Positions 10,912 to 27,690 of a stretch of 64,000 nucleotides of DNA are shown piece by piece. A program made the translations under genes and the position numbers. How positions within the stretch are numbered: the first letter of the stretch is position 1; every line of letters begins with the position of its first letter. The DNA lies in contig JBAXDB010000001.1 of assembly GCA_037141135.1 (NCBI GenBank), positions 9,191-73,190 on the forward strand. The letters are read 5' to 3'. The stretch comes from a bacterium (lineage in GTDB: Bacteria > Verrucomicrobiota > Kiritimatiellia > CAIKKV01 > CAITUY01). The notes under the pieces were generated by a model. The model made no database searches, was not told the origin of the DNA, and was given only the letters and a program-made list of their open reading frames with translations.

Positions 10912-12672
10912 TCACACCTCATGGTGCGCGTAGTGCGTATGCAGAAGCTCATGAGAGAGATGACTCAGCGGTTTTTCAAGGAACTCCTTGTAGAGCGCCT
11001 TGATCGCCGGGTTCTCGTGTGATTTGCGCAGGGGCATGTCGATGTCTTCCACATAAAGGGACTTTGCCCGCGCCTCGCGTTTTTCGCGGTCCGGCAGCAC
11101 GGGTTGACCGCCGCCGCCAATGCAGCCGCCCGGACAGGTCATCACTTCAATAAATGCATATTCTGATTTCCCGGCAGCGATCTCGTCCAGCAGGACCCTT
11201 GCATTTTTAAGTGTATGCGCCACTGCGACCTTCAGGGTTGTTCCCCCCACATCCAGTGCGGCATGTTTGATGCCCTCAAGCCCGCGTACCGCCGTAAGGT
11301 TGATATTGGGCAGAGGCTGGCCTGTGGCCACTTCATATGCTGTGCGGACGGCAGCTTCCATGACGCCACCGGTGGTGCCGAAAATAACTGCGGCGCCCGT
11401 GGATTGACCCAGGGGATCGTCAAAGGACTCCTCCTCGAGGTGGGAAAAATCCAAACCCACGTTCTTGATCATGCGGGCCAGTTCCCGGGTGGTCAGAACG
11501 TAATCCACATCAAAGTAGGGCTCCACGCCTTTCTGCCCCTTCTGCTTCCACCATTTCCAGGCGGACTGCATTTCAGGACGGTGTGCTTCGAATTTTTTTG
11601 CGGTGCAGGGCATGATGGACACCACCACCATGTTGGCCGGGTCGATGCCGACTTTTTCGGCGTAGTAACTCTTGGCCAGGGCGCCGAACATCTGTTGGGG
11701 CGACTTGCACGACGAAAGGTGCTTGAGCAGTTTCGGGTAGAACGTTTCAATAAACGAGATCCACCCCGGCGAACAACTGGTGATCATGGGCAGGGTCCCG
11801 CCCGTGGTCAGCCGTTGCAGAAGTTCTGTTCCCTCCTCCATGATGGTGAGATCGGCCGAGAACTGGGTGTCGAACACGCGGTTGAAGCCCAGTTTCCGCA
11901 AGGCCGCCACCATTTTGCCAGTCACCAGCGCGCCCATTTCCATGCCCATGGCTTCGCCAATGGAGGCCCGGATGGCCGGAGCGGTCTGGACCACCACGAT
12001 TTTCGAGGGATCCCGCAGGGCTTTGAACACCTCGTCGGTTTCGTCGTTTTCCACAATGGCCGCCGTGGGGCAGACCACCGTGCATTGACCGCAGTTTGTG
12101 CAGACGGAATGTTTCAGTCCCTGATCCATGAAGGTCCCGATATGCGTCCGGATGCCTCGGCCGGCGAAATCAATGGCCGCCACACTTTGCACCTCTTTGC
12201 ACACGGCCACACAGCGGCCGCAGAGGATGCACTTGTTGTTGTCCCGGGTGATGGACGGGCTGGTTCCGTCCAGAGCCACCGTTTTTTTGGTGGCCGGGAA
12301 ACGGGCCTGCCGTACGTTCAGGCGCTCCGCCATGGACTGGAGTTCGCAAGAGCCGTTCCGGATGCAGGAGAGGCAATCCATGGGATGGTTTGCCAGCAGC
12401 AGTTCAACGGCCGTTTTGCGGGCCGCCAGCACGCGGGTGGAGGCCGTCTTCACGTCCATGTTCGGGGTGACCTTGGTGACGCAGGAGCGCGTCAGACTTC
12501 TTCCGCCCTTGACTTCCACCACGCATACCCCGCATGAGGCGTTGTCCGCCACATCGCGCAGGTAACATAGTGTGGGCAGATTGATGCCGGCCGACCGGCA
12601 CGCATCGAGAATAGTGGTTCCGGATTCAACATCCACGCGAACTCCGTCAATTGTCATTGAGATTGTTGCCAT
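10912..12672 (-). CDS. hydA: [FeFe]-hydrogenase catalytic subunit (HydA/HndD, M3 architecture: 2Fe-2S, 3x 4Fe-4S, H-cluster domain)
   Basis: It is strongly CpI-like: MPCTAKKFE (L2), EVMTCPGGCIGGGGQP (L3), and L1 reading TSCSPGW. There is an N-terminal 2Fe-2S ferredoxin domain and ferredoxin-type Cys motifs. The start is at the ATG at 12672, preceded by a GGAGG RBS. Confidence 0.9.
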   Translation of the reverse strand: MATISMTIDGVRVDVESGTTILDACRSAGINLPTLCYLRDVADNASCGVCVVEVKGGRSLTRSCVTKVTPNMDVKTASTRVLAARKTAVELLLANHPMDCLSCIRNGSCELQSMAERLNVRQARFPATKKTVALDGTSPSITRDNNKCILCGRCVAVCKEVQSVAAIDFAGRGIRTHIGTFMDQGLKHSVCTNCGQCTVVCPTAAIVENDETDEVFKALRDPSKIVVVQTAPAIRASIGEAMGMEMGALVTGKMVAALRKLGFNRVFDTQFSADLTIMEEGTELLQRLTTGGTLPMITSCSPGWISFIETFYPKLLKHLSSCKSPQQMFGALAKSYYAEKVGIDPANMVVVSIMPCTAKKFEAHRPEMQSAWKWWKQKGQKGVEPYFDVDYVLTTRELARMIKNVGLDFSHLEEESFDDPLGQSTGAAVIFGTTGGVMEAAVRTAYEVATGQPLPNINLTAVRGLEGIKHAALDVGGTTLKVAVAHTLKNARVLLDEIAAGKSEYAFIEVMTCPGGCIGGGGQPVLPDREKREARAKSLYVEDIDMPLRKSHENPAIKALYKEFLEKPLSHLSHELLHTHYAHHEV

Positions 12673-12691: not shown

Positions 12692-15600
12692 TTACCAGGG
12701 AACACGAGCATTATCACGAACATCACAACGCAAACACCGCAGTGACTCACTGCGGGCCTGCTGGCCCGAATAGCCCTGCATAATTTCCGTGAAGTTGCCG
12801 CACCGCTCCTTGACCGGAATATCGCGCACCGTTACCTTCGCGCATTTTTTCGGATTTAAAGGAACCTCCATGCCATAGTCGAATTTGCGGAACAACTTAC
12901 TGAACCGGTCTTCGCCGGTCAGTTGCTTGTCGATCGCCTGTGCGGCCCGTTTGGCAAGTCCCATCGCCTCGCTGGCCGTGGCGGGGCCCGTCACCGCATC
13001 ACCCACCGCATAAATATTCGGCGCGGTAGTCTTCAGGGTGAAATTGTCGATGCGCACCGTTCCATTGCGGGCGCACTCGATGCCGTCCCTGGGCAGATCC
13101 TTTGAGCCTACCCGTTCCCCGATGGCCAGGAGAACCGCATCGCAGGGGATTTCAATGGTTTGCCCGGTGGGGATCGGGGTGGGGCGTCCGCTTTTATCCA
13201 ACGTTCCCGGCTTCATTTGCTGGAATCGCACCGCCCGGACCCGGCCCTTGGCATCGCCCAGGAAGGCTTCGGGGGCCATCATATACATGAAGCGAACGCC
13301 CTCGTCTTCGGCACCATCCAGTTCCGTCGCATTGGCGGGCATATCGCTGCGTCCGCGCCGGTAGGTCACCGTCACATCCGAGCCGAGCCTCCACAAGGTT
13401 CTGGCAGCATCAATGGCGACATTCCCGCCGCCAATGATCAGGGTTTTCTTGCCAGGCACGCCGGTCTTTTGCATGTTGAACGCTTCCAGGAAGTGGTAGC
13501 CGGGATAGACGCCCTTGAGTTCTTCGCCGGGCAGGCCGATCTTCTGGTCTTCCTGCGCTCCGATGGCGATGATGACGGCGTCATTCTGTTTGGCCAGCGT
13601 TTTGAGCGGGATATCCTTGCCCACACGCGTTTCGAACACGAAACGGACCCCGAGTTTTTTTATAAAGTCAACTTCCTTGTCCATCACCTCACGCGGCAGC
13701 CGGTAGGCGGGGATTCCGTAGCGCATGATTCCGCCCGCCTTTTTATGTTCGTCATAGATCGACACGCTATGGCCGAGCCGCGCCAAGTAGAAGGCGGCCG
13801 TAAGGCCGGCCGGGCCGGCGCCCACAATGGCGATTTTCCTGCCGGTGGCCGGTTGCTTTTCATCAATGAGCTTCTTGTAGATCGCCTTTTCCTTGCCCAT
13901 TTTGTACATCGTATCGGCCAGATAGCGGTGGATCTCGTTTTGAGCCACCGCCTGATCCAGATCCTCGCGGCGACACCGCATCTGGCAGTGGAAGTGACAG
14001 ACGCGACCAATGCTGCCGGGGAACGGATTGTCACGCAGGGTAAGCTCGAAGGCGTCCTCGATGCGCCCTTCCTTGAGCAAGGTGAGGTAGCCCGGGATAT
14101 TCATATGCAGAGGACAGGAGTTTTCGCAAAGGGCCAGGTACAGGCTTTCGCAGGCACCCGACGAACACCGCCGTTCGCGGATATGCTCCAGATATTCATC
14201 CTTGAAATATTTGAGTGTCGTCAGCACCGGGTTGGCGGCGGTCTGGCCCAGGCCGCACAATGAGGAATCGCGGATGACCTGTGCGAGTGCTTCAAGCTCG
14301 GCGATGTCCTTTTCCGTGCCTTTTCCGTTTGAAATGGACGTCAGAAGGCGCAGGGACTGGGACAACCCCTCGCGGCATGAGGTACACTTGCCGCAGGATT
14401 CAGCGGCAGTGAACCCGACAAAGTAACGGGCCACATCCACCATGCAGTTGTCCTGATCCATGACCACCATACCCCCGGAGCCCATGATCGCACCCAGGGC
14501 GGCGAGCGAATCGTAGTCGACCGGAGTCTTGAAATGTTCCACAGGGATACAGCCGCCTGAGGGTCCGCCGGTTTGCACCGCCTTGATCTTCTTGTTGAAG
14601 GAACCGGTTCCTTCGCCCATGCCGTAAACGATGGTCTCGATGGGCGTTCCGAGCGGCAATTCCACCAGGCCGGTGTTTTTTACCTTGCCCACGAGGGAAA
14701 AGACCTTGGTGCCCGCGCTTTGCGCCGTTCCGATCCCGTTGAACCACCCGGAACCCGCCGAAAGGATAGCGGGAACATTGCACAGGGTCTCCACATTATT
14801 GATGTTTGTTGGTGAATTGTTATAGCCACGCTCGGCCGGGTAGGGGGGGCGTGGCAAGGGGCGCCCTGCCTTGCTTTCCGCCGAGGCAATCAAGGCGGTT
14901 TCTTCGCCGCATACAAACGCGCCGGCGCCCTGGATGATCTCGATATCGAAACTGAAGCCCGAGCCCAGGATGTTCTTGCCCAGCAACCCGCGACTGCGTG
15001 CCGCCTGGATTGCCTTATTCAGGCGTTCGACGGCAAGGGGATATTCGGCCCGGATATACACGATACCCGACGGCGTCCCCATGGCATAGGCGCCGATGGC
15101 CATGCCTTCAATCAGCATGTGCGGATCGCTTTCAATTTCGTTCCGGTTCATGTAGGCGCCGGGATCACCCTCGTCGGCATTACAGATGATGAATTTGCCG
15201 GGTGAGGTCTGGGCCTGCATCATTTCCCACTTGCGGCCGGTCGGAAATCCCGCGCCCCCGCGGCCGCGCAGCTTGGAGTCCTTGACGGTTTCAATGACCT
15301 GCGTCGGGGTCATTTTCAGCAACGCCTTTGCTAAGGGGGCATAGCCGCCGACGGCGATATAGTCTTCGATCGATTCGGGATCAATCAGGCCGCAATCCCG
15401 GAGAACGATTTTTTTCTGGCCTTTGAAAAAGGGGATCTCATTCCATGCCGGCGTCTCAGGGTAGCCGGTTCCGAACGATACCTTGCCGGTCACAAAGTCC
15501 CAGGCTTCGATCTTGGCGCGGGCGTTCTTAGACAATGTTTCAGCGGCCTGGGAGTTGGTGGCCGCTTTCAACACCTCGGCGCATTGTTTGACCTGGAACT

Positions 15601-15865
15601 TGCTGAACAGCAGGATGGGCTTGCCGGGGAGATACAGCATGACTAGGGGTTCCTCGGCACAGAAGCCGAAGCAACCGGTGCGTTTCAGTGCGACCGGTGC
15701 TTTCATTTTTTTGATCATGGTACCGAACGCCTCAAACACTTTATCGGCGTCGTTGCCAATACCGCAGGTGCCCAGTCCGACGCTGATCATCGGCTTATGC
15801 GGGGCTACGGAGGCCAGGGCGGTTTGGCGCAGTAAATCAAGATCGTGCAGGCTTTGGATGATCAT
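12692..15865 (-). CDS. hndC: hydrogenase flavoprotein subunit: NuoF-like (HndC) fused to a GltD/NfnB-like NAD(P)H-FAD oxidoreductase domain
   Basis: An N-terminal thioredoxin-like 2Fe-2S domain is followed by the NuoF core (GRGGAGFPTG, ESCGKCTSCREG). A Cys-rich linker follows (CSSGACESLYLALCENSCP), then IAIVGAGPAGLTAA and TLIIGGGNVAIDAA Rossmann folds typical of GltD/NfnB. The protein is 1057 aa. Confidence 0.85.
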   Translation of the reverse strand: MIIQSLHDLDLLRQTALASVAPHKPMISVGLGTCGIGNDADKVFEAFGTMIKKMKAPVALKRTGCFGFCAEEPLVMLYLPGKPILLFSKFQVKQCAEVLKAATNSQAAETLSKNARAKIEAWDFVTGKVSFGTGYPETPAWNEIPFFKGQKKIVLRDCGLIDPESIEDYIAVGGYAPLAKALLKMTPTQVIETVKDSKLRGRGGAGFPTGRKWEMMQAQTSPGKFIICNADEGDPGAYMNRNEIESDPHMLIEGMAIGAYAMGTPSGIVYIRAEYPLAVERLNKAIQAARSRGLLGKNILGSGFSFDIEIIQGAGAFVCGEETALIASAESKAGRPLPRPPYPAERGYNNSPTNINNVETLCNVPAILSAGSGWFNGIGTAQSAGTKVFSLVGKVKNTGLVELPLGTPIETIVYGMGEGTGSFNKKIKAVQTGGPSGGCIPVEHFKTPVDYDSLAALGAIMGSGGMVVMDQDNCMVDVARYFVGFTAAESCGKCTSCREGLSQSLRLLTSISNGKGTEKDIAELEALAQVIRDSSLCGLGQTAANPVLTTLKYFKDEYLEHIRERRCSSGACESLYLALCENSCPLHMNIPGYLTLLKEGRIEDAFELTLRDNPFPGSIGRVCHFHCQMRCRREDLDQAVAQNEIHRYLADTMYKMGKEKAIYKKLIDEKQPATGRKIAIVGAGPAGLTAAFYLARLGHSVSIYDEHKKAGGIMRYGIPAYRLPREVMDKEVDFIKKLGVRFVFETRVGKDIPLKTLAKQNDAVIIAIGAQEDQKIGLPGEELKGVYPGYHFLEAFNMQKTGVPGKKTLIIGGGNVAIDAARTLWRLGSDVTVTYRRGRSDMPANATELDGAEDEGVRFMYMMAPEAFLGDAKGRVRAVRFQQMKPGTLDKSGRPTPIPTGQTIEIPCDAVLLAIGERVGSKDLPRDGIECARNGTVRIDNFTLKTTAPNIYAVGDAVTGPATASEAMGLAKRAAQAIDKQLTGEDRFSKLFRKFDYGMEVPLNPKKCAKVTVRDIPVKERCGNFTEIMQGYSGQQARSESLRCLRCDVRDNARVPW

Positions 15866-16377
15866 CGGCGTTCCTCCTTTTGAAGTTTTTCAATGAGCCC
15901 GAGCAATTTGCCAGGGGTGATATGCGAGTGAATGATGCCGTCAATCGCCACCACAGGCGCAAGGGCACACTGTCCGAAGCAGGCGACCGTCCGCACCGTA
16001 AAGATTTTGTCAGGGGTGGTGAACGAGGCTTCCTCATCTTCCTCAAAGTCGCTGAATCCCAATTTTGCGGCCGCCTCCATGAGGAGGGTGCGTGAGCCGC
16101 GGGTGTGGCAGGCGGTGCCCCTGCAAACCACGATCGTGTGTTTGCCCTGTGGCTTAAGGTTGAAGAACGAATAAAAAGTGGCCACCGAATAAACCTGAGA
16201 CATCGGTATGCCCGCTTTTTTTGCGACCTCCTTGAGCGTGTCCTCGCTTAAGTGGTTATGCGCGTCGTTGACTTGAAGCTCCTCGAGAATACTGAGCAGG
16301 CTGCCAGGCTTCCCCTGATATTTATGGATCGCCGATTCAAGCGCAGGAGTTCTCTTCTTTTCTGGTTTTTTCTTCAT
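15862..16377 (-). CDS. hndA: NuoE-like 2Fe-2S thioredoxin-like hydrogenase subunit (HndA/HydC)
   Basis: VCRGTACHTRGS...VACFGQCALAP is the NuoE/24 kDa 2Fe-2S motif. It overlaps hndC by 4 nt. Confidence 0.85.
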   Translation of the reverse strand: MKKKPEKKRTPALESAIHKYQGKPGSLLSILEELQVNDAHNHLSEDTLKEVAKKAGIPMSQVYSVATFYSFFNLKPQGKHTIVVCRGTACHTRGSRTLLMEAAAKLGFSDFEEDEEASFTTPDKIFTVRTVACFGQCALAPVVAIDGIIHSHITPGKLLGLIEKLQKEERR

Positions 16378-16538: not shown

Positions 16539-17942
16539 ATGGACGATATACAGATGGGGAAGAGTATAATTTGCGAAGCTGACATCGAGCGGCAGTTACT
16601 CGCGGGGCAGGGTGAGGATGCTGGTAGGATCCGTGAGATACTGGCCAAGGCGGCTCTGGCCCAGGGGTTGACAGATGCGGAAGTGGCGGTTCTGATGGAG
16701 ATCCGGAGCCCTGCGTTGGCCCACGAGTTGTTTCAGACTGCCAGTCAGGTCAAGGACATCATTTACGGCAAGCGGCTGGTTATTTTTGCCCCGCTCTACA
16801 TTTCGAACCTGTGCGGTAACGAATGTCTTTACTGCGCGTTCCGGGCGCGCAACACGGCTATCAAACGCCGCGCGCTCACGCAGGAGGAGATTGCCCACGA
16901 GGTGAAAGCCCTGGTGGAGCAGGGCCACAAACGCTTGTTGGTGGTGGCTGGCGAATCTTATCCGCGGGAGGGGTTCGACTATGTGCTCAAGGCCATCGAA
17001 ACCGTCTACAGTGTCAAGTCCGGCCGCGGCGAGATCCGTCGCGTTAACGCGAACGTGGCGCCCCTCACGATCGATGAATTCAAGCAACTCAAAGCCGCCA
17101 AGATCGGCACTTACCAGCTTTTCCAGGAGACGTATCACAGGGCCACCTACAGCCGGATGCACGTGGCGGGCCGCAAGAAGGATTTCGACTGGCGCGTGAC
17201 GGGGATTGATCGTGCCATGACGGCGGGCATCAATGATGTGGGGATCGGCGTGCTGCTTGGTCTCTGCGACTGGAAGTTCGAGGTTATGGCCCTGCTCCAG
17301 CACATCCATCATCTGGAAAAGGAATTCGGGGTGGGGCCCCACACGATCAGTGTGCCGCGTTTGGAGCCTGCCACTGGATCGGATGTTTCGATTCAGCCGC
17401 CGAGCCCGGTGACCGATGACGATTTCCGCAAGATTGTCGCCATTCTCCGCCTGGCCGTTCCCTATACGGGCATCATCATGTCCACCCGCGAAAACGCGCA
17501 GATGCGGCGCGAAGGGTTTGATCTGGGCATCTCGCAGATCTCAGCGGGCAGCCGCACGGATCCGGGCGGCTATTCGACGGATAGCTCCGGCGAAGTAAAC
17601 GGTCAGTTCTCATTGGGTGACCACCGCTCCCTCGATGAGGTGATTGCAGATGTGGCCGCGCTGGGCTACATTCCATCTTTCTGCACCGGGTGTTACCGGC
17701 TTGGGCGAACCGGCGCGGATTTCATGGACATGGCCAAACCCGGTGAGATCAAGTCGCATTGCGGCCCCAACGCGGTCTCGACCTTTGCCGAATACCTGCT
17801 GGACTATGCTTCGCCCGTTACCCGCGAGGCCGGGTTCCAGTTGATCGATAAGGTTATCGGTGATATGACCGGCGTGGCGAAAGAACGGTCCGAACGCCTC
17901 CTGAAGCAAGTCAAGGAAGGGAAGCGGGACGTTTACTGCTAA
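16539..17942 (+). CDS. hydG: [FeFe]-hydrogenase maturase HydG (radical SAM tyrosine lyase)
   Basis: The ThiH-like radical SAM motif CGNECLYCAF is present, with the C-terminal auxiliary-cluster motif CTGCYRLGRTG...HCGPN. Confidence 0.9.
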   Translation: MDDIQMGKSIICEADIERQLLAGQGEDAGRIREILAKAALAQGLTDAEVAVLMEIRSPALAHELFQTASQVKDIIYGKRLVIFAPLYISNLCGNECLYCAFRARNTAIKRRALTQEEIAHEVKALVEQGHKRLLVVAGESYPREGFDYVLKAIETVYSVKSGRGEIRRVNANVAPLTIDEFKQLKAAKIGTYQLFQETYHRATYSRMHVAGRKKDFDWRVTGIDRAMTAGINDVGIGVLLGLCDWKFEVMALLQHIHHLEKEFGVGPHTISVPRLEPATGSDVSIQPPSPVTDDDFRKIVAILRLAVPYTGIIMSTRENAQMRREGFDLGISQISAGSRTDPGGYSTDSSGEVNGQFSLGDHRSLDEVIADVAALGYIPSFCTGCYRLGRTGADFMDMAKPGEIKSHCGPNAVSTFAEYLLDYASPVTREAGFQLIDKVIGDMTGVAKERSERLLKQVKEGKRDVYC

Positions 17943-17944
17943 TA

Positions 17945-19342
17945 ATGAGAACCGAGCAGGATTCATTGGGTGAGCGGCAGGTGCCTGAGGGCGCACTCTA
18001 TGGTATTCACACGCTGCGGGCATTGGAGAATTTCCCGCTCAGCGGGCGTCCGGTGCATCCGGCGCTGGCCGCGGCGTATGGGACCGTGAAGCTCGCCTGC
18101 GTACGGACCAACCGGCGCCTTGGCATGTGGGCGGATGAGGCCCTGGTGGATGCCCTGGAGTCCGCCTGCCGCGAACTGATGGACGGGCGGCTGGTGGAGC
18201 ATATCCGCGTGGATGCCCTGCAGGGCGGTGCGGGAACATCCACCAACATGAACGTGAACGAGGTGCTGGCGAACCGGGCTCTGGAACTGCTCGGGCAACC
18301 GTGCGGCGCGTATAATGTCATTTCCCCACTCAACGATCTCAACCTGCACCAGTCCACGAATGACACCTTCCCCACGGCGTTGCGGCTGGCTGCCATCAGG
18401 AGTCTGCATGCCCTGGAGGCGCGGGTGACGTCCTTGCAGGAGGCCTTCCAGGCCAAGGAGAAAGAATTTGCGGATGTCGTCAAAGTCGGCCGAACGGAGT
18501 TTCAGGATGCGGTGTTGATCACGTTGGGGCGCGAAATGGGCGCGTATGCCGAGGCCTTTAATCGTGATCGCTGGCGACTCTACAAATGTGAGGAGCGGCT
18601 GCGCGTGGTGAATCTGGGCGGCACGGCCGTGGGCACTGGCCTGGGGGCGCCGCGTGATTACATCTTCCGCGTGGTGGATGAACTGCGCGAACTGACCGGC
18701 ATCGGTTTTGCGCGCGCCGAGAATCTGGTGGACGCCACGCAGAACACGGATGTGCTGGTGGAGGTATCTGGTATTCTCAAGGCCTGTGCGACCTCGCTCA
18801 TTAAGATTGCCAACGATGTACGGCTGCTTTCCAGCGGGCCGGATGCCGGGCTGGGCGAACTGCGACTGCCGGCGATGCAGGCTGGCTCCTCGATCATGCC
18901 GGGCAAGGTGAACCCGGTGATCCCCGAGGCGGTGGTGCAGGCCGCCTTGCGGGTGCTGGGCAATGACAGCACTATTGCCATGGCCTCGGCCATGGGCAGT
19001 CTGGAATTGAATGCGTTTATGCCGCTCATGGCGGATTGCCTGCTTGAAAGCCTGGATCTGTTAACCCGGGCCTGCGCCCTGTTCGATGAGCTTTGCGTAC
19101 GTGGTTTGGTCGCTTGTGCGGAGCAGTGTCGCGTACATGTTGATGGCACGGTCGCTGCCGCAACGGCGCTGGTGCCGGTGTTGGGCTATGAACGGGCTGC
19201 AGAGTTGGCCGCTGAAGTTGCAAGGTCCGGTCGGCCGCTGCGGGACCTGATAGTGGAGAGGGGCATTCTGACCGCCGAAGCTTTCACTGAACTAATTTCC
19301 GCCGAAGCCGTTTGCCGCCTCGGCCATCCTAAACAAAAATGA
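17945..19342 (+). CDS. aspartate ammonia-lyase/fumarase class II family protein embedded in the hyd maturase operon
   Basis: GSSIMPGKVNP is the fumarate-lyase signature. It is translationally coupled: 2 nt after hydG, with a 4-nt overlap to hydF. Confidence 0.85.
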   Translation: MRTEQDSLGERQVPEGALYGIHTLRALENFPLSGRPVHPALAAAYGTVKLACVRTNRRLGMWADEALVDALESACRELMDGRLVEHIRVDALQGGAGTSTNMNVNEVLANRALELLGQPCGAYNVISPLNDLNLHQSTNDTFPTALRLAAIRSLHALEARVTSLQEAFQAKEKEFADVVKVGRTEFQDAVLITLGREMGAYAEAFNRDRWRLYKCEERLRVVNLGGTAVGTGLGAPRDYIFRVVDELRELTGIGFARAENLVDATQNTDVLVEVSGILKACATSLIKIANDVRLLSSGPDAGLGELRLPAMQAGSSIMPGKVNPVIPEAVVQAALRVLGNDSTIAMASAMGSLELNAFMPLMADCLLESLDLLTRACALFDELCVRGLVACAEQCRVHVDGTVAAATALVPVLGYERAAELAAEVARSGRPLRDLIVERGILTAEAFTELISAEAVCRLGHPKQK

Positions 19343-20577
19343 ATAAGACTCCAAAAGGGTATCGGCTGCATATCGGCATCTTTGGCCGGCGCAATGTGGG
19401 CAAATCGAGCGTGCTGAATGCGATTACCAGTCAGCAGGTGTCGATCGTCTCCGACGTGGCCGGCACGACGACTGATCCGGTGGAGAAGCCCATGGAACTG
19501 CTGCCGCTCGGGCCGGTTCTCTTTATCGATACTGCCGGGGTGGATGATGAAGGCATGCTCGGCGACTTGCGCGTGCAGCGCACGAAGCAGGTGCTCGAAC
19601 GGACCGACCTGGGACTGATTATTACCGAGGGCCGCACATGGGGTTCCTACGAGCAGACGCTGGCGGCAGAACTCAAGCGGCGCAAGGTGACGGTTCTTGT
19701 TATCTTTAACAAATCGGATGTGGCCACTGTGGATGCGGACCTTATGGCCCGGCTTCTGGCCGAAGGTATTCGCAGTCTGGCCGTCTCGGCCCGGACGGGT
19801 GCGGGGATCCAATCGCTGCGGCGGCTCCTTGTGGAGTTGGCGCCGGAGGACTTTATTGCCAGTCCCAAGATTGCGGGCGATCTGGTGCCGCCGGGCGACT
19901 GTGCGGTGTTGGTGGTGCCGGTGGATAAAGAAGCGCCCAAGGGACGCCTGATTCTGCCGCAGGTGCAGACGATCCGTGATCTGCTGGACAACGATTCCTA
20001 TTGCCTGGTCGTCAAAGAACGCGAATTGCGTGAGGCCTTGGGGCGGCTGAACCGGCCTCCGGCGCTCGTGGTGACAGATTCCCAGGCGTTTCTCAAGGTG
20101 GCGGCGGATACGCCTGAGTCTGTGCCTCTGACATCGTTTTCGATTCTATTTGCCCGATTTCACGCGGATTTGGACGAGATGGTGCGGGGGGCTCTGGCGA
20201 TTGCGAAGCTCAAGGGCGGTGACCACGTTCTGATCGCCGAGGCCTGCTCGCATCACCCGATCGGTGAGGACATCGGCACGATCAAGATTCCGCGCTGGCT
20301 GACGCAGTATGTGGGTGGTAAGCTGGAGTTCGAGTACACCCGCGGTCATGATTTTCCTGCCGACCTGGCGAAGTACAAGCTCATCATTCATTGCGGGGCC
20401 TGCATGTGGAACCGGCGTGAGATGCTTTCGCGGCACCTGGTGGCACGGGAAGCTGGTGTGCCCATGACCAACTACGGGCTGGCGATTGCGTTCTCGCTCG
20501 GGATCTTTGAGCGCGCCCTGCGGCCCTTTCCCGGTGCCTATGAAATTTACCGGAAAAGTCAGGGAGTGACGATATGA
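19339..20577 (+). CDS. hydF: [FeFe]-hydrogenase maturase GTPase HydF
   Basis: The GTPase motifs GRRNVGKSS and DTAG are present, and the C-terminal cluster-binding motifs CSHHP and HCGAC. Confidence 0.9.
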   Translation: MNKTPKGYRLHIGIFGRRNVGKSSVLNAITSQQVSIVSDVAGTTTDPVEKPMELLPLGPVLFIDTAGVDDEGMLGDLRVQRTKQVLERTDLGLIITEGRTWGSYEQTLAAELKRRKVTVLVIFNKSDVATVDADLMARLLAEGIRSLAVSARTGAGIQSLRRLLVELAPEDFIASPKIAGDLVPPGDCAVLVVPVDKEAPKGRLILPQVQTIRDLLDNDSYCLVVKERELREALGRLNRPPALVVTDSQAFLKVAADTPESVPLTSFSILFARFHADLDEMVRGALAIAKLKGGDHVLIAEACSHHPIGEDIGTIKIPRWLTQYVGGKLEFEYTRGHDFPADLAKYKLIIHCGACMWNRREMLSRHLVAREAGVPMTNYGLAIAFSLGIFERALRPFPGAYEIYRKSQGVTI

Positions 20578-21710
20578 GTGCGCTGGCCGATCTGGTGCAA
20601 CAGACGGAATTCAGCCGCGAGGAGATTGCGTTCCTGCTGGGCAGGCGTGACAAGGCTGAAGTGGAAATGTTGCGTAAGGCTGCGGAGGCATTGTGCTTCG
20701 CCTGCGTGGGCAACAAGGTTCACTTCCGCGGACTGGTAGAGTTCTCAAACATCTGCGTGTGCGACTGTCACTACTGCGGGATCCGCAAAAGCAACCCGGC
20801 CCCAACGCGCTTCTTCCTGACCCTGGATGAGGTGATGCAAGCCGCGCACTGGTGCGCGGAGCAGGGCTACGGGTCGCTCGTGCTGCAGTCGGGTGAGCGG
20901 CGTGATGAGCCGTTCATCCAGTTTGTGGAAAATGCGGTCCGGATGATCAGGGCCGGGACGCGGACGGTGAAGCAGCCCGACGGGCTTGGCATCACCCTGT
21001 GTGTGGGGGAGCAGACGCGGGAGACCTATACGCGGTTCAAGGCGGCGGGAGCGCATCGTTACCTGCTGCGCATTGAATCGTCTTCTCCGCGGCTGTTTCG
21101 CCAGTTGCATCCCCCGGGGCAGACTCTTGAGCAGCGGGTGCAGTGTCTGCATTGGCTGCGCGAAGCGGGTTTCCAGGTGGGGACAGGCGTGATGATCGGG
21201 TTCCCCGGCCAGACGCTGGAAGACCTGGCGGATGATGTGCTGTTTTTCCAGTCGCAGGACGTGGATATGATTGGCATGGGGCCCTACATTGTGCATAAGC
21301 AGACGCCCATGGCGGTGCATGAGGCCGGGATGGCCCTGAGGCGCGATGAGATTTACCAGTTGGCGCTCAACATGATTGCGGTGACGCGGCTGGTACTGCG
21401 GAACGTGAACATTGCGGCGACCACGGCGCTTCAGGCGATGAAGCCCACGGGCCGTGAGGAAGGCCTGACCTATGGGGCCAACGTGATCATGCCGCAACTT
21501 ACCCCCACGGAGTTCCGCAAGGATTACCAGCTCTATGAAGGCAAGCCGTGTCTGGACGAAAATCGCGACTTGTGCAAGATGTGTCTTGAAAAGCGCATTG
21601 CCGGTATCGGCAGGGTCATTGGCTATCACGAATGGGGCGATTCGCGGCACGCCCGCGACCGGCAGGCCGCTGCGCCGCTTCATGAAGATCTGAATTGTCT
21701 TCAGCGATGA
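20574..21710 (+). CDS. hydE: [FeFe]-hydrogenase maturase HydE (radical SAM, BioB-like)
   Basis: The radical SAM motif is CVCDCHYCGIR. It overlaps hydF by 4 nt. Confidence 0.85.
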   Translation: MSALADLVQQTEFSREEIAFLLGRRDKAEVEMLRKAAEALCFACVGNKVHFRGLVEFSNICVCDCHYCGIRKSNPAPTRFFLTLDEVMQAAHWCAEQGYGSLVLQSGERRDEPFIQFVENAVRMIRAGTRTVKQPDGLGITLCVGEQTRETYTRFKAAGAHRYLLRIESSSPRLFRQLHPPGQTLEQRVQCLHWLREAGFQVGTGVMIGFPGQTLEDLADDVLFFQSQDVDMIGMGPYIVHKQTPMAVHEAGMALRRDEIYQLALNMIAVTRLVLRNVNIAATTALQAMKPTGREEGLTYGANVIMPQLTPTEFRKDYQLYEGKPCLDENRDLCKMCLEKRIAGIGRVIGYHEWGDSRHARDRQAAAPLHEDLNCLQR

Positions 21711-26040: not shown

Positions 26041-27690
26041 ATGTCTACACGTGATTCTATGCCTTTTGATATTATTGGTGTGGGTTGTGGGGTGGCAACG
26101 CTCTCAACCGTGTTGCAACTGCTTAAACGTGTGAAGCGTGAGCCCGATGGTTCTCTTCAGGCCCCCAGCATTCTGATCATTGATAAGGCACCGTCGGTTG
26201 GGGCTCATAACTTGTCGGGGGCCGTTGTGGACACGGCGTCCCTGGCTGATCTGCTGGAATACGAAGATTTTGCAGGGTTGCCGCAGTATACCACGGTCAA
26301 AGAAGAGAGCTTTCGATATTTAACCCCAACCGGTTCGATGAAAGTCCCCTGGGTGCCGAAAACGATGCATGCGGAAGGCTATCCGATTGTATCCGTTTCC
26401 GCGCTGACCCGTCATCTGGCAGGTTTATGCGAAAGGGCCGGGGCCGAAATTTATTCGGGTTTTGCCGCCGTTGAGTTATTGAGGGAGAATGGACGCATCG
26501 TCGGGGTGCGCGTGGGCGACAAGGGGGTCGGTAAAAATGGCGAGCGCCGCTCGAGTTTTGAACTTGGGCCCGACTTGATGGCGTCCATGGTTATTCTGGG
26601 TGAAGGGGCTTGCGGCTTCCTGACCGAGAAGCTGTTTACTGATGAGGGTATGGCTGGCGCTAATCTCCAGACCTATGCGGTCGGCATCAAAGAATTGATT
26701 GAGACCCCCGAGTGCAAGGGGCGGGCCGGCACCATTATGCACGCTTTCGGATATCCTCTGGATTCCAAGACCTATGGGGGCGGGTTTATTTATTGCCTGA
26801 GTGACACCATGACGGCGGTTGGAATGGTCACCGCGCTGGATTACAGGAATCCCACGACCAATCCCCATGATCTGTTCAGGCTCTTTAAACATCACCCAGC
26901 GGTTCTTCCGTTCATTGCGGGAGGCAAGGTTTTGGAATACGGGGCCAAAGTCCTTCCTGAAGGAGGCATCAATTCCGTTCCCAAGTTGGTTGCGGATGGT
27001 GCTGTGATTGTGGGCGACGGTGCCGGGCTGAGTAATTCATTGCGCCTGAAAGGGGTTCATCTGGCGGTTCAATCTGGAATTGCCGCCGGGGATGCCTTGT
27101 TTGAGGGCTGGAAAAACAACAAGGATTTCTCCGTTGCCGCCCTGCAGAAATATCCTGAAAATCTTAAGGATTCGGTGCCCTGGCGTGAGTTGGAGAAGAT
27201 TAAGAACGTGCGGGCCGGTTTTACTTATGGATCCCTGCCTGGCATGGCGGTGATCGGGATGAGTCATTTCAGCTGCGGCCTGCTGCCGCCCGGGCGGATA
27301 GCCCTGGAAGAGGACCGGGAAGCAATGAAAGCCAAGGCGGATGTGAAGCCCTGCGCTTTGCCCCCGAAGGTTGGCGCGGATGAGGCGAATCTCCAGTTGG
27401 ACAGGCTCTCGGATTTATTCTTATCTAAAACGCACCATGAAGAAAACCAACCTTCTCATTTGAAAATTACGGACCCCGATAAGTGCAAGATTTGCATCAA
27501 GAAATATGGCGCCCCTTGCACGCTGTTCTGCCCTGCGCAAGTGTATGTGCTGACGGACGATCAACAGGGCATTCATATTGATTTTTCAAATTGTCTGCAC
27601 TGCAAGACCTGCCAGATAAAAGATCCCCTGAATAATATCCAGTGGACGCCCCCCGAAGGGGGTGGTGGTCCCGTGTATTCGAAGATGTAA
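26041..27690 (+). CDS. electron-transfer flavoprotein:quinone oxidoreductase (ETF-QO / FixC-like, with C-terminal 4Fe-4S domain)
   Basis: An N-terminal FAD Rossmann fold (DIIGVGCGVA) and C-terminal ferredoxin-like cysteines (CKICIKKYGAPCTLFCP, CLHCKTC) are present, at 549 aa. Confidence 0.8.
   Translation: MSTRDSMPFDIIGVGCGVATLSTVLQLLKRVKREPDGSLQAPSILIIDKAPSVGAHNLSGAVVDTASLADLLEYEDFAGLPQYTTVKEESFRYLTPTGSMKVPWVPKTMHAEGYPIVSVSALTRHLAGLCERAGAEIYSGFAAVELLRENGRIVGVRVGDKGVGKNGERRSSFELGPDLMASMVILGEGACGFLTEKLFTDEGMAGANLQTYAVGIKELIETPECKGRAGTIMHAFGYPLDSKTYGGGFIYCLSDTMTAVGMVTALDYRNPTTNPHDLFRLFKHHPAVLPFIAGGKVLEYGAKVLPEGGINSVPKLVADGAVIVGDGAGLSNSLRLKGVHLAVQSGIAAGDALFEGWKNNKDFSVAALQKYPENLKDSVPWRELEKIKNVRAGFTYGSLPGMAVIGMSHFSCGLLPPGRIALEEDREAMKAKADVKPCALPPKVGADEANLQLDRLSDLFLSKTHHEENQPSHLKITDPDKCKICIKKYGAPCTLFCPAQVYVLTDDQQGIHIDFSNCLHCKTCQIKDPLNNIQWTPPEGGGGPVYSKM

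What the first reader, a model, noticed from the sequence alone, without database searches (positions are those of the whole stretch)
11761..11781. HydA H-cluster L1 motif reads TSCSPGW instead of TSCCPxW
Translation of the minus-strand DNA (ACC AGT TGT TCG CCG GGG TGG) gives PMITSCSPGW. This aligns without gaps to CpI PMFTSCCPGW, so the second cysteine of L1 is Ser. In characterised group A [FeFe] hydrogenases the two L1 cysteines are the proton-relay Cys and a ligand of the [4Fe-4S]H subcluster. L2 (MPCTAKKFE) and L3 (EVMTCPGGCIGGGGQP) are intact, and hydEFG sit adjacent. This is therefore either a naturally Ser-ligated or relay-altered H-cluster in an otherwise A3-type bifurcating hydrogenase, or a catalytically unusual or sensory variant.
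Basis: partly seen in the sequence, partly recalled or inferred. Interest (0 to 1): 0.6.

Follow-up and report, generated by a model that had tools for sequence, protein, structure and literature searches.

The report
Known serine variant of hydrogenase motif
The hydrogen-producing enzyme gene really does carry a serine where textbooks show an iron-binding cysteine, but about one in five related enzymes do the same, including a purified, structurally solved and fully active one, so the finding is real but ordinary.

Summary
Window 11761-11781 (minus strand) encodes TSCSPGW inside a 586-aa group A [FeFe]-hydrogenase HydA (10912-12672). A gapless alignment puts Cys300 on the CpI proton-relay Cys299 and Ser301 on CpI Cys300, a ligand of the [4Fe-4S] part of the H-cluster.

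It is not a sequencing error. The same protein occurs in two independent metagenome assemblies, and TCG needs two base changes to become a Cys codon. All 120 nearest homologs (66-93% identity) carry xSCSPxW.

It is also not new:
- Acetobacterium woodii HydA1 (PDB 7Q4V) has the identical LPMITSCSPGW. Katsyv et al. 2023 assign Ser301 as cluster ligand and report normal FTIR and activity.
- Earlier papers report Ser here in about 20% of HydA sequences. My count is 18% of 50%-identity cluster representatives.

The relay-altered and sensory readings are rejected. The relay Cys, the proton-pathway residues and motifs L2 and L3 are intact, there is no extra sensory domain, and hydG, hydF and hydE are adjacent.

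The less ordinary feature is the neighbouring 1057-aa HydB, which is fused to a GltD/NfnA-like NADPH module. This fusion is widespread, and I found no biochemical study of it.

Verdict: already known, low interest.

The parts
11761..11781 (-). L1 (P1) H-cluster motif TSCSPGW, residues 298-304 of HydA
   Evidence: gapless alignment to CpI TSCCPGW and identical to A. woodii HydA1 TSCSPGW
11773..11775 (-). TGT, Cys300; aligns to the CpI Cys299 proton-relay cysteine (retained)
   Evidence: alignment; invariant in 34 homologs
11770..11772 (-). TCG, Ser301; aligns to CpI Cys300 and T. kivui Cys299 ([4Fe-4S]H ligand) and to A. woodii Ser301
   Evidence: invariant in 34 homologs; Ser in 120 of 120 nearest homologs
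11587..11613 (-). L2 motif MPCTAKKFE (Cys356 cluster ligand, Lys359)
   Evidence: alignment
11101..11148 (-). L3 motif EVMTCPGGCIGGGGQP (Cys513 ligand and Cys517, aligned to the CpI bridging Cys503)
   Evidence: alignment
10912..12672 (-). hydA, 586-aa M3-type group A [FeFe]-hydrogenase catalytic subunit (NCBIfam 'group A6')
   Evidence: AF2 model with TM 0.85-0.86 to 8a6t_A, 7q4w_A and CpI
12692..15865 (-). hydB::gltD fusion, 1057 aa: NuoF-like FMN/NADH module (residues ~26-576) fused to a GltD/NfnA-like module with 2x[4Fe-4S], FAD and an NAD(P)H site (~578-1051)
   Evidence: Pfam Complex1_51K, NADH_4Fe-4S, Fer4_20 and Pyr_redox_2; PDB halves match HydB/NfnB and StnC/NfnA/NfnI-L
15862..16377 (-). 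hydC, NuoE-like thioredoxin-like [2Fe-2S] subunit
   Evidence: Pfam 2Fe-2S_thioredx 5.6e-40
16539..17942 (+). hydG, H-cluster radical SAM maturase
   Evidence: TIGR03955, 516 bits against cutoff 312
17945..19342 (+). aspartate ammonia-lyase-like gene lying between hydG and hydF
   Evidence: NF008909, 616.5 bits against cutoff 510
19339..20577 (+). hydF, H-cluster maturation GTPase
   Evidence: TIGR03918, 552.9 bits against cutoff 325.55
20574..21710 (+). hydE, H-cluster radical SAM maturase
   Evidence: TIGR03956, 323 bits against cutoff 254.6

Best explanation
The gene encodes a functional, catalytic group A [FeFe]-hydrogenase large subunit. In it the [4Fe-4S] subcluster of the H-cluster is held by three cysteines (Cys356, Cys513 and the bridging Cys517) plus the side-chain oxygen of Ser301, in place of the fourth cysteine (CpI Cys300). 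The adjacent relay cysteine (Cys300, CpI Cys299) and the rest of the proton pathway are unchanged. H2 chemistry at the di-iron site should therefore proceed as in standard enzymes. This is the normal state of a large natural subfamily that includes Acetobacterium woodii HydA1. Shown here: the residue identities, the alignment, conservation across relatives, an intact operon and adjacent maturase genes. Inferred by homology to the A. woodii cryo-EM structure and FTIR data: that Ser301 actually ligates iron and that activity is normal. HydA is expected to work in a HydA/HydB::GltD/HydC complex that exchanges electrons with pyridine nucleotides. The organism is probably a Kiritimatiellia (PVC group) bacterium.
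For: (1) Gapless alignment to CpI, T. kivui HydA1 and A. woodii HydA1. A. woodii has the identical LPMITSCSPGWI.FIET and the same residue number, Ser301.
(2) Katsyv et al. 2023 (PMC10021017) state that in A. woodii HydABC one Cys ligand of the A1 cluster (Cys299 in T. kivui) is replaced by Ser301. [quoted passage not shown]
(3) 120 of 120 nearest homologs at 66-93% identity have xSCSPxW. Ser301 and Cys300 are invariant in a 34-sequence alignment.
(4) Synonymous Ser codons (TCG, TCC, TCT, AGC, AGT) occur at the site across 17 related loci, which shows selection for Ser at the amino-acid level.
(5) The query residues aligned to CpI E279, E282, R286 and S319 are conserved, and L2 and L3 are intact.
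(6) HydG, HydF and HydE score above their curated NCBIfam cutoffs and lie next to the operon.
(7) The AF2 model superposes on 8a6t_A, 7q4w_A and CpI with TM 0.85-0.86.
(8) The published frequency of Ser at this site is about 20% (Kertess 2017). My count is 28 of about 157 aligned H-domains.
Against: Ser-O ligation rests on a 3.4 A cryo-EM map of a 48-53% identical homolog, not on this protein. The engineered equivalent in Chlamydomonas HydA1 (C115S) lost most of its [4Fe-4S] cluster and all activity, so Ser is tolerated only in the right protein context. I could not identify the compensating residues: no position co-varies cleanly with Ser301. No expression or activity data exist for this protein. 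The tools return no model coordinates, so the geometry around Ser301 could not be measured.
Confidence: 0.85

Rival explanations
1. Sequencing or assembly error: the true codon is Cys and the motif is the canonical TSCCPGW.
For: None found. This is only the general prior that a single unusual residue in a metagenome contig may be an error.
Against: TCG needs two substitutions to become TGT or TGC. An identical protein with the identical TCG codon occurs in two independently assembled contigs from different projects. Relatives at 85-91% identity carry TCG or TCC. 120 of 120 homologs have Ser.
Confidence: 0.01
2. Sensory or regulatory hydrogenase (group C, HydS-like), or a non-catalytic HydA-like electron-transfer subunit as in the Stn/Nfn complexes, with the L1 change marking loss of catalysis.
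For: Non-canonical L1 motifs are typical of group C and group B enzymes. The partner HydB carries an Nfn/Stn-like GltD module, and Stn complexes use a HydA/NuoG-like subunit without an H-cluster.
Against: The protein passes the NCBIfam group A6 model and the TIGR02512 group A cutoffs. There is no PAS or other extra domain. The relay Cys, the proton-pathway residues, L2 and L3 are all intact. hydG, hydF and hydE are adjacent. The A. woodii enzyme with the same motif is catalytically active.
Confidence: 0.04
3. The Ser is an adaptive tuning device. Oxygen ligation shifts the [4Fe-4S]H potential or stabilises the oxidised cluster (for example against O2), giving this subfamily a different catalytic bias matched to NAD(P)H-coupled partners.
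For: Boyd et al. 2014 proposed stabilisation of an oxidised state and O2 tolerance. Ligand exchanges at other [4Fe-4S]H cysteines change the catalytic bias of CrHydA1. Ser is strictly conserved in the subfamily. Both Ser codon families occur among close relatives and Cys-type clades are interleaved with Ser-type ones, which suggests repeated gain or retention.
Against: Katsyv et al. saw no apparent effect on FTIR signatures and similar activities for the Ser-type (A. woodii) and Cys-type (T. kivui) enzymes. Ser-type HydA occurs with both plain HydB and fused HydB::GltD partners, so there is no clean link to partner type. The scattered distribution could equally reflect near-neutral exchange.
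Confidence: 0.1

Closest known systems
Acetobacterium woodii HydA1 of the electron-bifurcating HydABC(D) hydrogenase (PDB 7Q4V, 7Q4W, 8A5E; Katsyv et al. 2023)
   Same: Same M3 domain architecture and length (586 vs 583 aa), 48% identity in the Foldseek alignment, phmmer E = 1.1e-181. Identical L1 context LPMITSCSPGWI.FIET with Ser at residue 301. Same L2 and L3. Also has Cys at the position of Cys322. TM-score 0.85.
   Different: A. woodii HydB is a stand-alone NuoF-like subunit with its own C-terminal 2x[4Fe-4S] domain. Here HydB is fused to a GltD/NfnA-like module. The organisms differ: a Gram-positive acetogen versus a probable Kiritimatiellia.
Thermoanaerobacter kivui HydA1 (PDB 8A6T)
   Same: Best-scoring solved relative (E = 1.4e-191, 50% identity, TM 0.86). 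Same architecture and proton-pathway residues.
   Different: Has canonical TSCCPSW, with Cys299 as the cluster ligand where this protein has Ser301.
Clostridium pasteurianum CpI (reference group A1 enzyme)
   Same: 40% identity, TM 0.86, gapless alignment through L1. The residues aligned to C299, E279, E282, R286 and S319 are conserved.
   Different: CpI is monomeric, ferredoxin-dependent and has TSCCPGW.
Engineered CrHydA1 C115S (Kertess et al. 2017)
   Same: Same substitution at the homologous ligand position.
   Different: The engineered variant binds little [4Fe-4S] and is inactive. The natural Ser-type scaffold, by the A. woodii precedent, is active.
Stn and NfnABC (Bfu-type) transhydrogenases, and the archaeal hybrid hydrogenase HydB with a glutamate-synthase-type domain
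   Same: They combine NuoE-like, NuoF-like and GltD-like NADPH modules. The C-terminal half of the window's HydB matches StnC, NfnA and NfnI-L. A HydB with a glutamate-synthase-type domain was modelled in Greening et al. 2024.
   Different: In Stn the GltD-like domain is fused to the NuoG/HydA-like subunit, which lacks an H-cluster. Here it is fused to the NuoF-like subunit and the HydA has a complete H-cluster site.

Membership tests
Group A [FeFe]-hydrogenase catalytic subunit (HydA) | H-domain fold and sequence (Fe_hyd_lg_C plus the small-subunit-like C-terminus) | tested here: met
   Pfam 1.7e-98 and 3e-23; TIGR02512 529 bits against cutoff 406; TM 0.85-0.86 to solved HydA structures
Group A [FeFe]-hydrogenase catalytic subunit (HydA) | L1 motif TSCCPxW with both cysteines | tested here: not met
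   The motif is TSCSPGW: the relay Cys is present and the ligand Cys is replaced by Ser. The literature now writes the motif as xTSCxPxW because Ser is common in group A3, so this is a known permitted variant and not an exclusion.
Group A [FeFe]-hydrogenase catalytic subunit (HydA) | L2 MPCxxKxxE and L3 ExMxCxxGCxxG, with three Cys ligands including the bridging Cys | tested here: met
   MPCTAKKFE and EVMTCPGGCIGGGGQP
Group A [FeFe]-hydrogenase catalytic subunit (HydA) | Proton-transfer pathway (CpI C299, E279, S319, E282, R286) | tested here: met
   All five aligned positions are conserved in the CpI alignment
Group A [FeFe]-hydrogenase catalytic subunit (HydA) | H-cluster maturases HydE, HydF and HydG available | tested here: met
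   All three lie adjacent and score above curated cutoffs
NCBIfam NF040763 'NADH-dependent [FeFe] hydrogenase, group A6' (the Ser-type subfamily that includes A. woodii HydA1) | Score above the curated cutoff | tested here: met
   871.8 bits against cutoff 765, aligned over positions 1-570 of the 571-position profile
Ser-ligated H-cluster as in A. woodii HydA1 | Ser side chain bound to an iron of [4Fe-4S]H | not testable with these tools
   Identical local sequence and residue number to Ser301 of A. woodii. Metal ligation itself needs a structure or spectroscopy.
Electron-bifurcating HydABC (group A3 / Bfu family) | Operon with HydA, NuoF-like HydB and NuoE-like HydC | tested here: met
   hydC, hydB and hydA are contiguous on the minus strand. 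The synteny is conserved in Kiritimatiellia, PVC-group and Spirochaetales MAGs.
Electron-bifurcating HydABC (group A3 / Bfu family) | HydB with a C-terminal ferredoxin-like 2x[4Fe-4S] domain, the proposed ferredoxin branch | tested here: not met
   After the NuoF [4Fe-4S] region (residues 477-561) the chain continues directly into the Fer4_20 and Pyr_redox_2 domains of a GltD-like module. No separate bacterial-ferredoxin domain was detected.
Electron-bifurcating HydABC (group A3 / Bfu family) | Ferredoxin- and NAD(P)-dependent bifurcating activity | not testable with these tools
   Requires enzyme assays
Group C sensory [FeFe]-hydrogenase (HydS-like) | Additional sensory (PAS) domain and loss of the relay Cys and proton pathway | tested here: not met
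   No extra domain; the relay Cys and the pathway residues are conserved

The most novel reading that the evidence does not exclude
The hydC-hydB::gltD-hydA operon may encode an uncharacterised class of trimeric hydrogenase. In it a Ser-ligated H-cluster would be wired through a NuoF-like FMN site to a fused NfnA/GltD-like FAD/NADPH site, in effect a hydrogenase-transhydrogenase hybrid linking H2, NAD(H) and NADP(H). The strictly conserved Ser301 would tune the [4Fe-4S]H potential for that coupling. The evidence shows that the fusion is widespread and syntenic with Ser-type HydA. It shows nothing about the enzyme's substrates or about any effect of the Ser.
Probability: 0.2. Interest if true: 0.45.

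Novelty: already known. Interest (0 to 1): 0.12.

Why it matters
As a discovery it matters little. A natural Cys-to-Ser exchange at this H-cluster ligand has been reported repeatedly since at least 2013 and has been characterised structurally and spectroscopically in A. woodii. This exact protein is already in public databases under the name 'NADH-dependent [FeFe] hydrogenase, group A6'.

One open question remains in the field. Natural Ser-type scaffolds keep a stable, active H-cluster, yet the same substitution engineered into Chlamydomonas HydA1 destroys cluster binding. This sequence adds one more natural example, from a Kiritimatiellia-like lineage, but no new leverage on that question.

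The fused HydB::GltD partner is the part more worth biochemical attention. It suggests NADP(H) involvement in a large, uncharacterised group of multimeric hydrogenases.

Tried and rejected
1. Compensating cysteine. Cys322 (CpI Ala321) is present here and in A. woodii but absent in CpI and T. kivui, so I tested whether it co-varies with Ser301. It does not: Cys322 is the commonest residue in Cys-type enzymes too (CC/C 61, CC/A 23, CS/C 20, CS/A 7). Rejected.

2. Search for any second-sphere position that tracks Ser versus Cys at 301, across 27 Ser-type and 111 Cys-type H-domains. The best total-variation distance was 0.61, at variable positions, with no clean partner.

3. Single origin of the Ser clade. 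A crude NJ tree with Fitch parsimony gave at least 16 state changes and no large pure-Ser clade. The tree of 50%-identity representatives is poorly resolved, so I treat this only as a hint of recurrent exchange. Codon data (TCN and AGY families in neighbouring lineages) point the same way.

4. A second hydA copy in the window. tblastn found only the one gene.

5. Literature on the NuoF-GltD fusion. The Bfu family paper, the Hydrogenedentota paper and a flavin-bifurcation review had nothing on it. Only the archaeal hybrid hydrogenase paper mentions a HydB with a glutamate-synthase-type domain.

6. The AF2 model confirms the fold. Coordinates are not returned, so it could not be used to measure the Ser301-cluster geometry.

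Full report
**Observation.** The reverse complement of window 11761-11781 reads ACC AGT TGT TCG CCG GGG TGG, which translates to TSCSPGW. The motif sits in frame in an ORF whose biologically sensible start is the ATG at 12672 (MATISMTIDG...), giving 586 aa and ending at 10912. The mechanical ORF list extends this to a GTG at 12750, but all homologs are about 586 aa and the upstream gene ends at 12692.

The protein is an M3-type [FeFe]-hydrogenase large subunit:
- Pfam: Fer2_4, NADH-G_4Fe-4S_3, two ferredoxin-type 4Fe-4S motifs, Fe_hyd_lg_C (1.7e-98) and Fe_hyd_SSU.
- NCBIfam: TIGR02512 'group A', and NF040763 'NADH-dependent [FeFe] hydrogenase, group A6' at 871.8 bits against a cutoff of 765.

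**Which residue is changed.** phmmer against PDB sequences aligns the protein without gaps through L1 to CpI (PMFTSCCPGW), T. kivui HydA1 (PMFTSCCPSW) and A. woodii HydA1. Counting along the printed alignment, query Cys300 falls on CpI Cys299 and query Ser301 on CpI Cys300. From established knowledge of CpI and CrHydA1, the first Cys is the proton relay next to the azadithiolate amine. The second is one of the four ligands of the [4Fe-4S] subcluster (CpI C300, C355, C499, C503). The query residues aligned to CpI E279, E282, R286 and S319 are all conserved.

**Not an artefact.**
- Exactly the same 586-aa protein is encoded on two independently assembled metagenome contigs (JGI 3300021602 and ENA ERZ27300181). 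Their DNA identity to the window gene is 99.9%, and both carry the same TCG codon.
- TCG is two substitutions away from either Cys codon.
- Relatives at 85-91% protein identity have TCG or TCC.

**Not rare.**
- All 120 best homologs in a 5.8-billion-protein collection (66-93% identity) carry xSCSPxW, and 117 of them are exactly TSCSPGW.
- Cys300 and Ser301 are invariant in a 34-sequence alignment.
- Among the 150 best representatives of 50%-identity clusters, 28 of about 157 aligned H-domains (18%) have Cys-Ser and 111 have Cys-Cys.
- Across 26 related genomic loci, the 17 Ser-type genes use TCG, TCC, TCT, AGC and AGT.
- Neighbouring Spirochaetales lineages at 68-69% identity use different Ser codon families. 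One AGC lineage is closest to a Cys-type Mollicutes/Izemoplasmatales cluster.
- A crude NJ and parsimony analysis also scatters the Ser state. That tree is weak.

Together these results suggest repeated Cys/Ser exchange, but they do not prove it.

**Already described.**
- The second-best PDB hit, A. woodii HydA1 (7Q4V; E = 1.1e-181), has the identical LPMITSCSPGWI.FIET.
- Katsyv et al. 2023 (PMC10021017) write that in A. woodii HydABC one cysteine ligand of the A1 cluster (Cys299 in T. kivui) is replaced by Ser301. [quoted passage not shown]
- Di Rienzi et al. 2013 noted TSCSPGW in Melainabacteria hydrogenases.
- Boyd et al. 2014 reported the Cys300-to-Ser change as common in hydA amplicons from Great Salt Lake and Guerrero Negro, and speculated about O2 stability.
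- Kertess et al. 2017 cite Ser at this position in about 20% of putative hydrogenases. They showed that the engineered CrHydA1 C115S loses the cluster and all activity.
- A 2024 Hydrogenedentota study writes the motif as xTSCxPxW, with Ser common in four of five A3 subtypes.

**What it is and how it works.** The best-supported reading is a normal catalytic hydrogenase with a 3-Cys/1-Ser [4Fe-4S]H site.
- The AF2 model (mean pLDDT 77) superposes on T. kivui HydA, A. woodii HydA1 and CpI with TM 0.85-0.86.
- hydG, hydF and hydE, with an aspartate ammonia-lyase-like gene between hydG and hydF, lie divergently next to the operon.
- The window holds no second hydA.
- The sensory and non-catalytic readings fail on domain content, the retained relay and the intact L2 and L3.
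- Iron ligation by Ser301 and normal activity are inferred from the A. woodii homolog. They are not shown for this protein.

**Context.** The operon on the minus strand is hydC (15862-16377), a 1057-aa hydB (12692-15865) and hydA.
- HydB is a fusion. Residues ~26-576 match NfnB and HydB (9n5u_B, 7q4v_B). Residues ~578-1051 match the GltD-like modules of StnC, NfnA and NfnI-L.
- Read directly from the translation, the fused module carries a GGGNVA glycine motif, which fits the GxGxxA pattern proposed to bind NADP(H).
- The usual separate ferredoxin-like C-terminal domain of HydB is not detected.
- The fusion is widespread. All 120 listed best homologs (60-100% identity) are of similar length (1041-1121 aa), and source names include Spirochaetes, Paludibacter and Goldbacteria.
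- It is syntenic with Ser-type hydA in Kiritimatiellia, PVC-group and Spirochaetales MAGs, and in one Clostridiaceae MAG.
- Ser-type HydA also occurs with plain HydB (A. woodii; loci L012, L014 and L021), so the two features are not strictly linked.
- A HydB with a glutamate-synthase-type domain has a precedent in archaeal hybrid hydrogenases. Stn fuses the GltD-like domain to the NuoG-like subunit instead.
- I found no biochemical characterisation of the bacterial fusion.

**Source organism.** The nearest genomes are Kiritimatiellia and PVC-group MAGs at 87-93% identity. The rest of the window examined (27 ORFs; ORFs beyond 47400 were not scanned) is housekeeping: LptF/G, SecA, Lnt, RF, EF-G, an HtrA-like protease and ETF-QO.

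**Verdict.** The feature is already known and common, so interest is low (0.12). The remaining questions are why natural scaffolds tolerate Ser when CrHydA1 does not, and what the HydB::GltD complex does. This sequence alone does not make either question more tractable.

Noticed in passing
window 12692-15865 (-): HydB is a 1057-aa fusion of a NuoF-like FMN/NADH module with a GltD/NfnA-like module (2x[4Fe-4S], FAD, a GGGNVA motif fitting the NADP(H)-type GxGxxA pattern). This module takes the place of the usual ferredoxin-like C-terminal domain. The fusion is widespread (Spirochaetes, Paludibacter, Goldbacteria, Kiritimatiellia) and syntenic with hydC and hydA. I found no biochemical characterisation of the bacterial form in the searches made.
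   Followed up: partly
window 11770-11772 and loci L008-L014, L023 (Ser codon of L1): Ser at the ligand position is encoded by both codon families (TCN and AGY) in closely related lineages, for example Spirochaetales L008/L009 with TCG versus Sphaerochaeta L010 with AGC at 68-69% protein identity. Switching between the families needs a double change or passage through Cys or Thr, which hints at repeated Cys/Ser exchange.
   Followed up: partly
window 11707-11709 (-), HydA Cys322: There is an extra cysteine in LSSCKSPQQ (CpI Ala321), shared with A. woodii HydA1. I tested it as a possible substitute ligand. It is equally common in Cys-type enzymes, so it is not linked to Ser301.
   Followed up: yes
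window 15386-15865 (-), N-terminal ~160 residues of HydB: The thioredoxin-like N-terminal domain appears to keep only three of the four usual [2Fe-2S] cysteines (GLGTCG...GCFGFC). This recalls StnB, in which two of the four are lost. The judgement rests on reading the sequence only.
   Followed up: no
window 17945-19342 (+): An aspartate ammonia-lyase-like gene (NF008909, 616 bits) is inserted between hydG and hydF in the maturase cluster, and it overlaps the start of hydF.
   Followed up: no
P0121 (representative-library hit, not in the window): A 4122-aa protein in which seven stretches match HydA was the top-scoring representative. It could be a giant multi-H-domain protein or an assembly or gene-calling artefact.
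   Followed up: no
window 26041-27690 (+): An ETF-ubiquinone oxidoreductase-like protein (Fer4_ETF_QO, ETFQO_UQ-bd) is encoded in an organism that otherwise looks like an anaerobic fermenter with an [FeFe]-hydrogenase.
   Followed up: no
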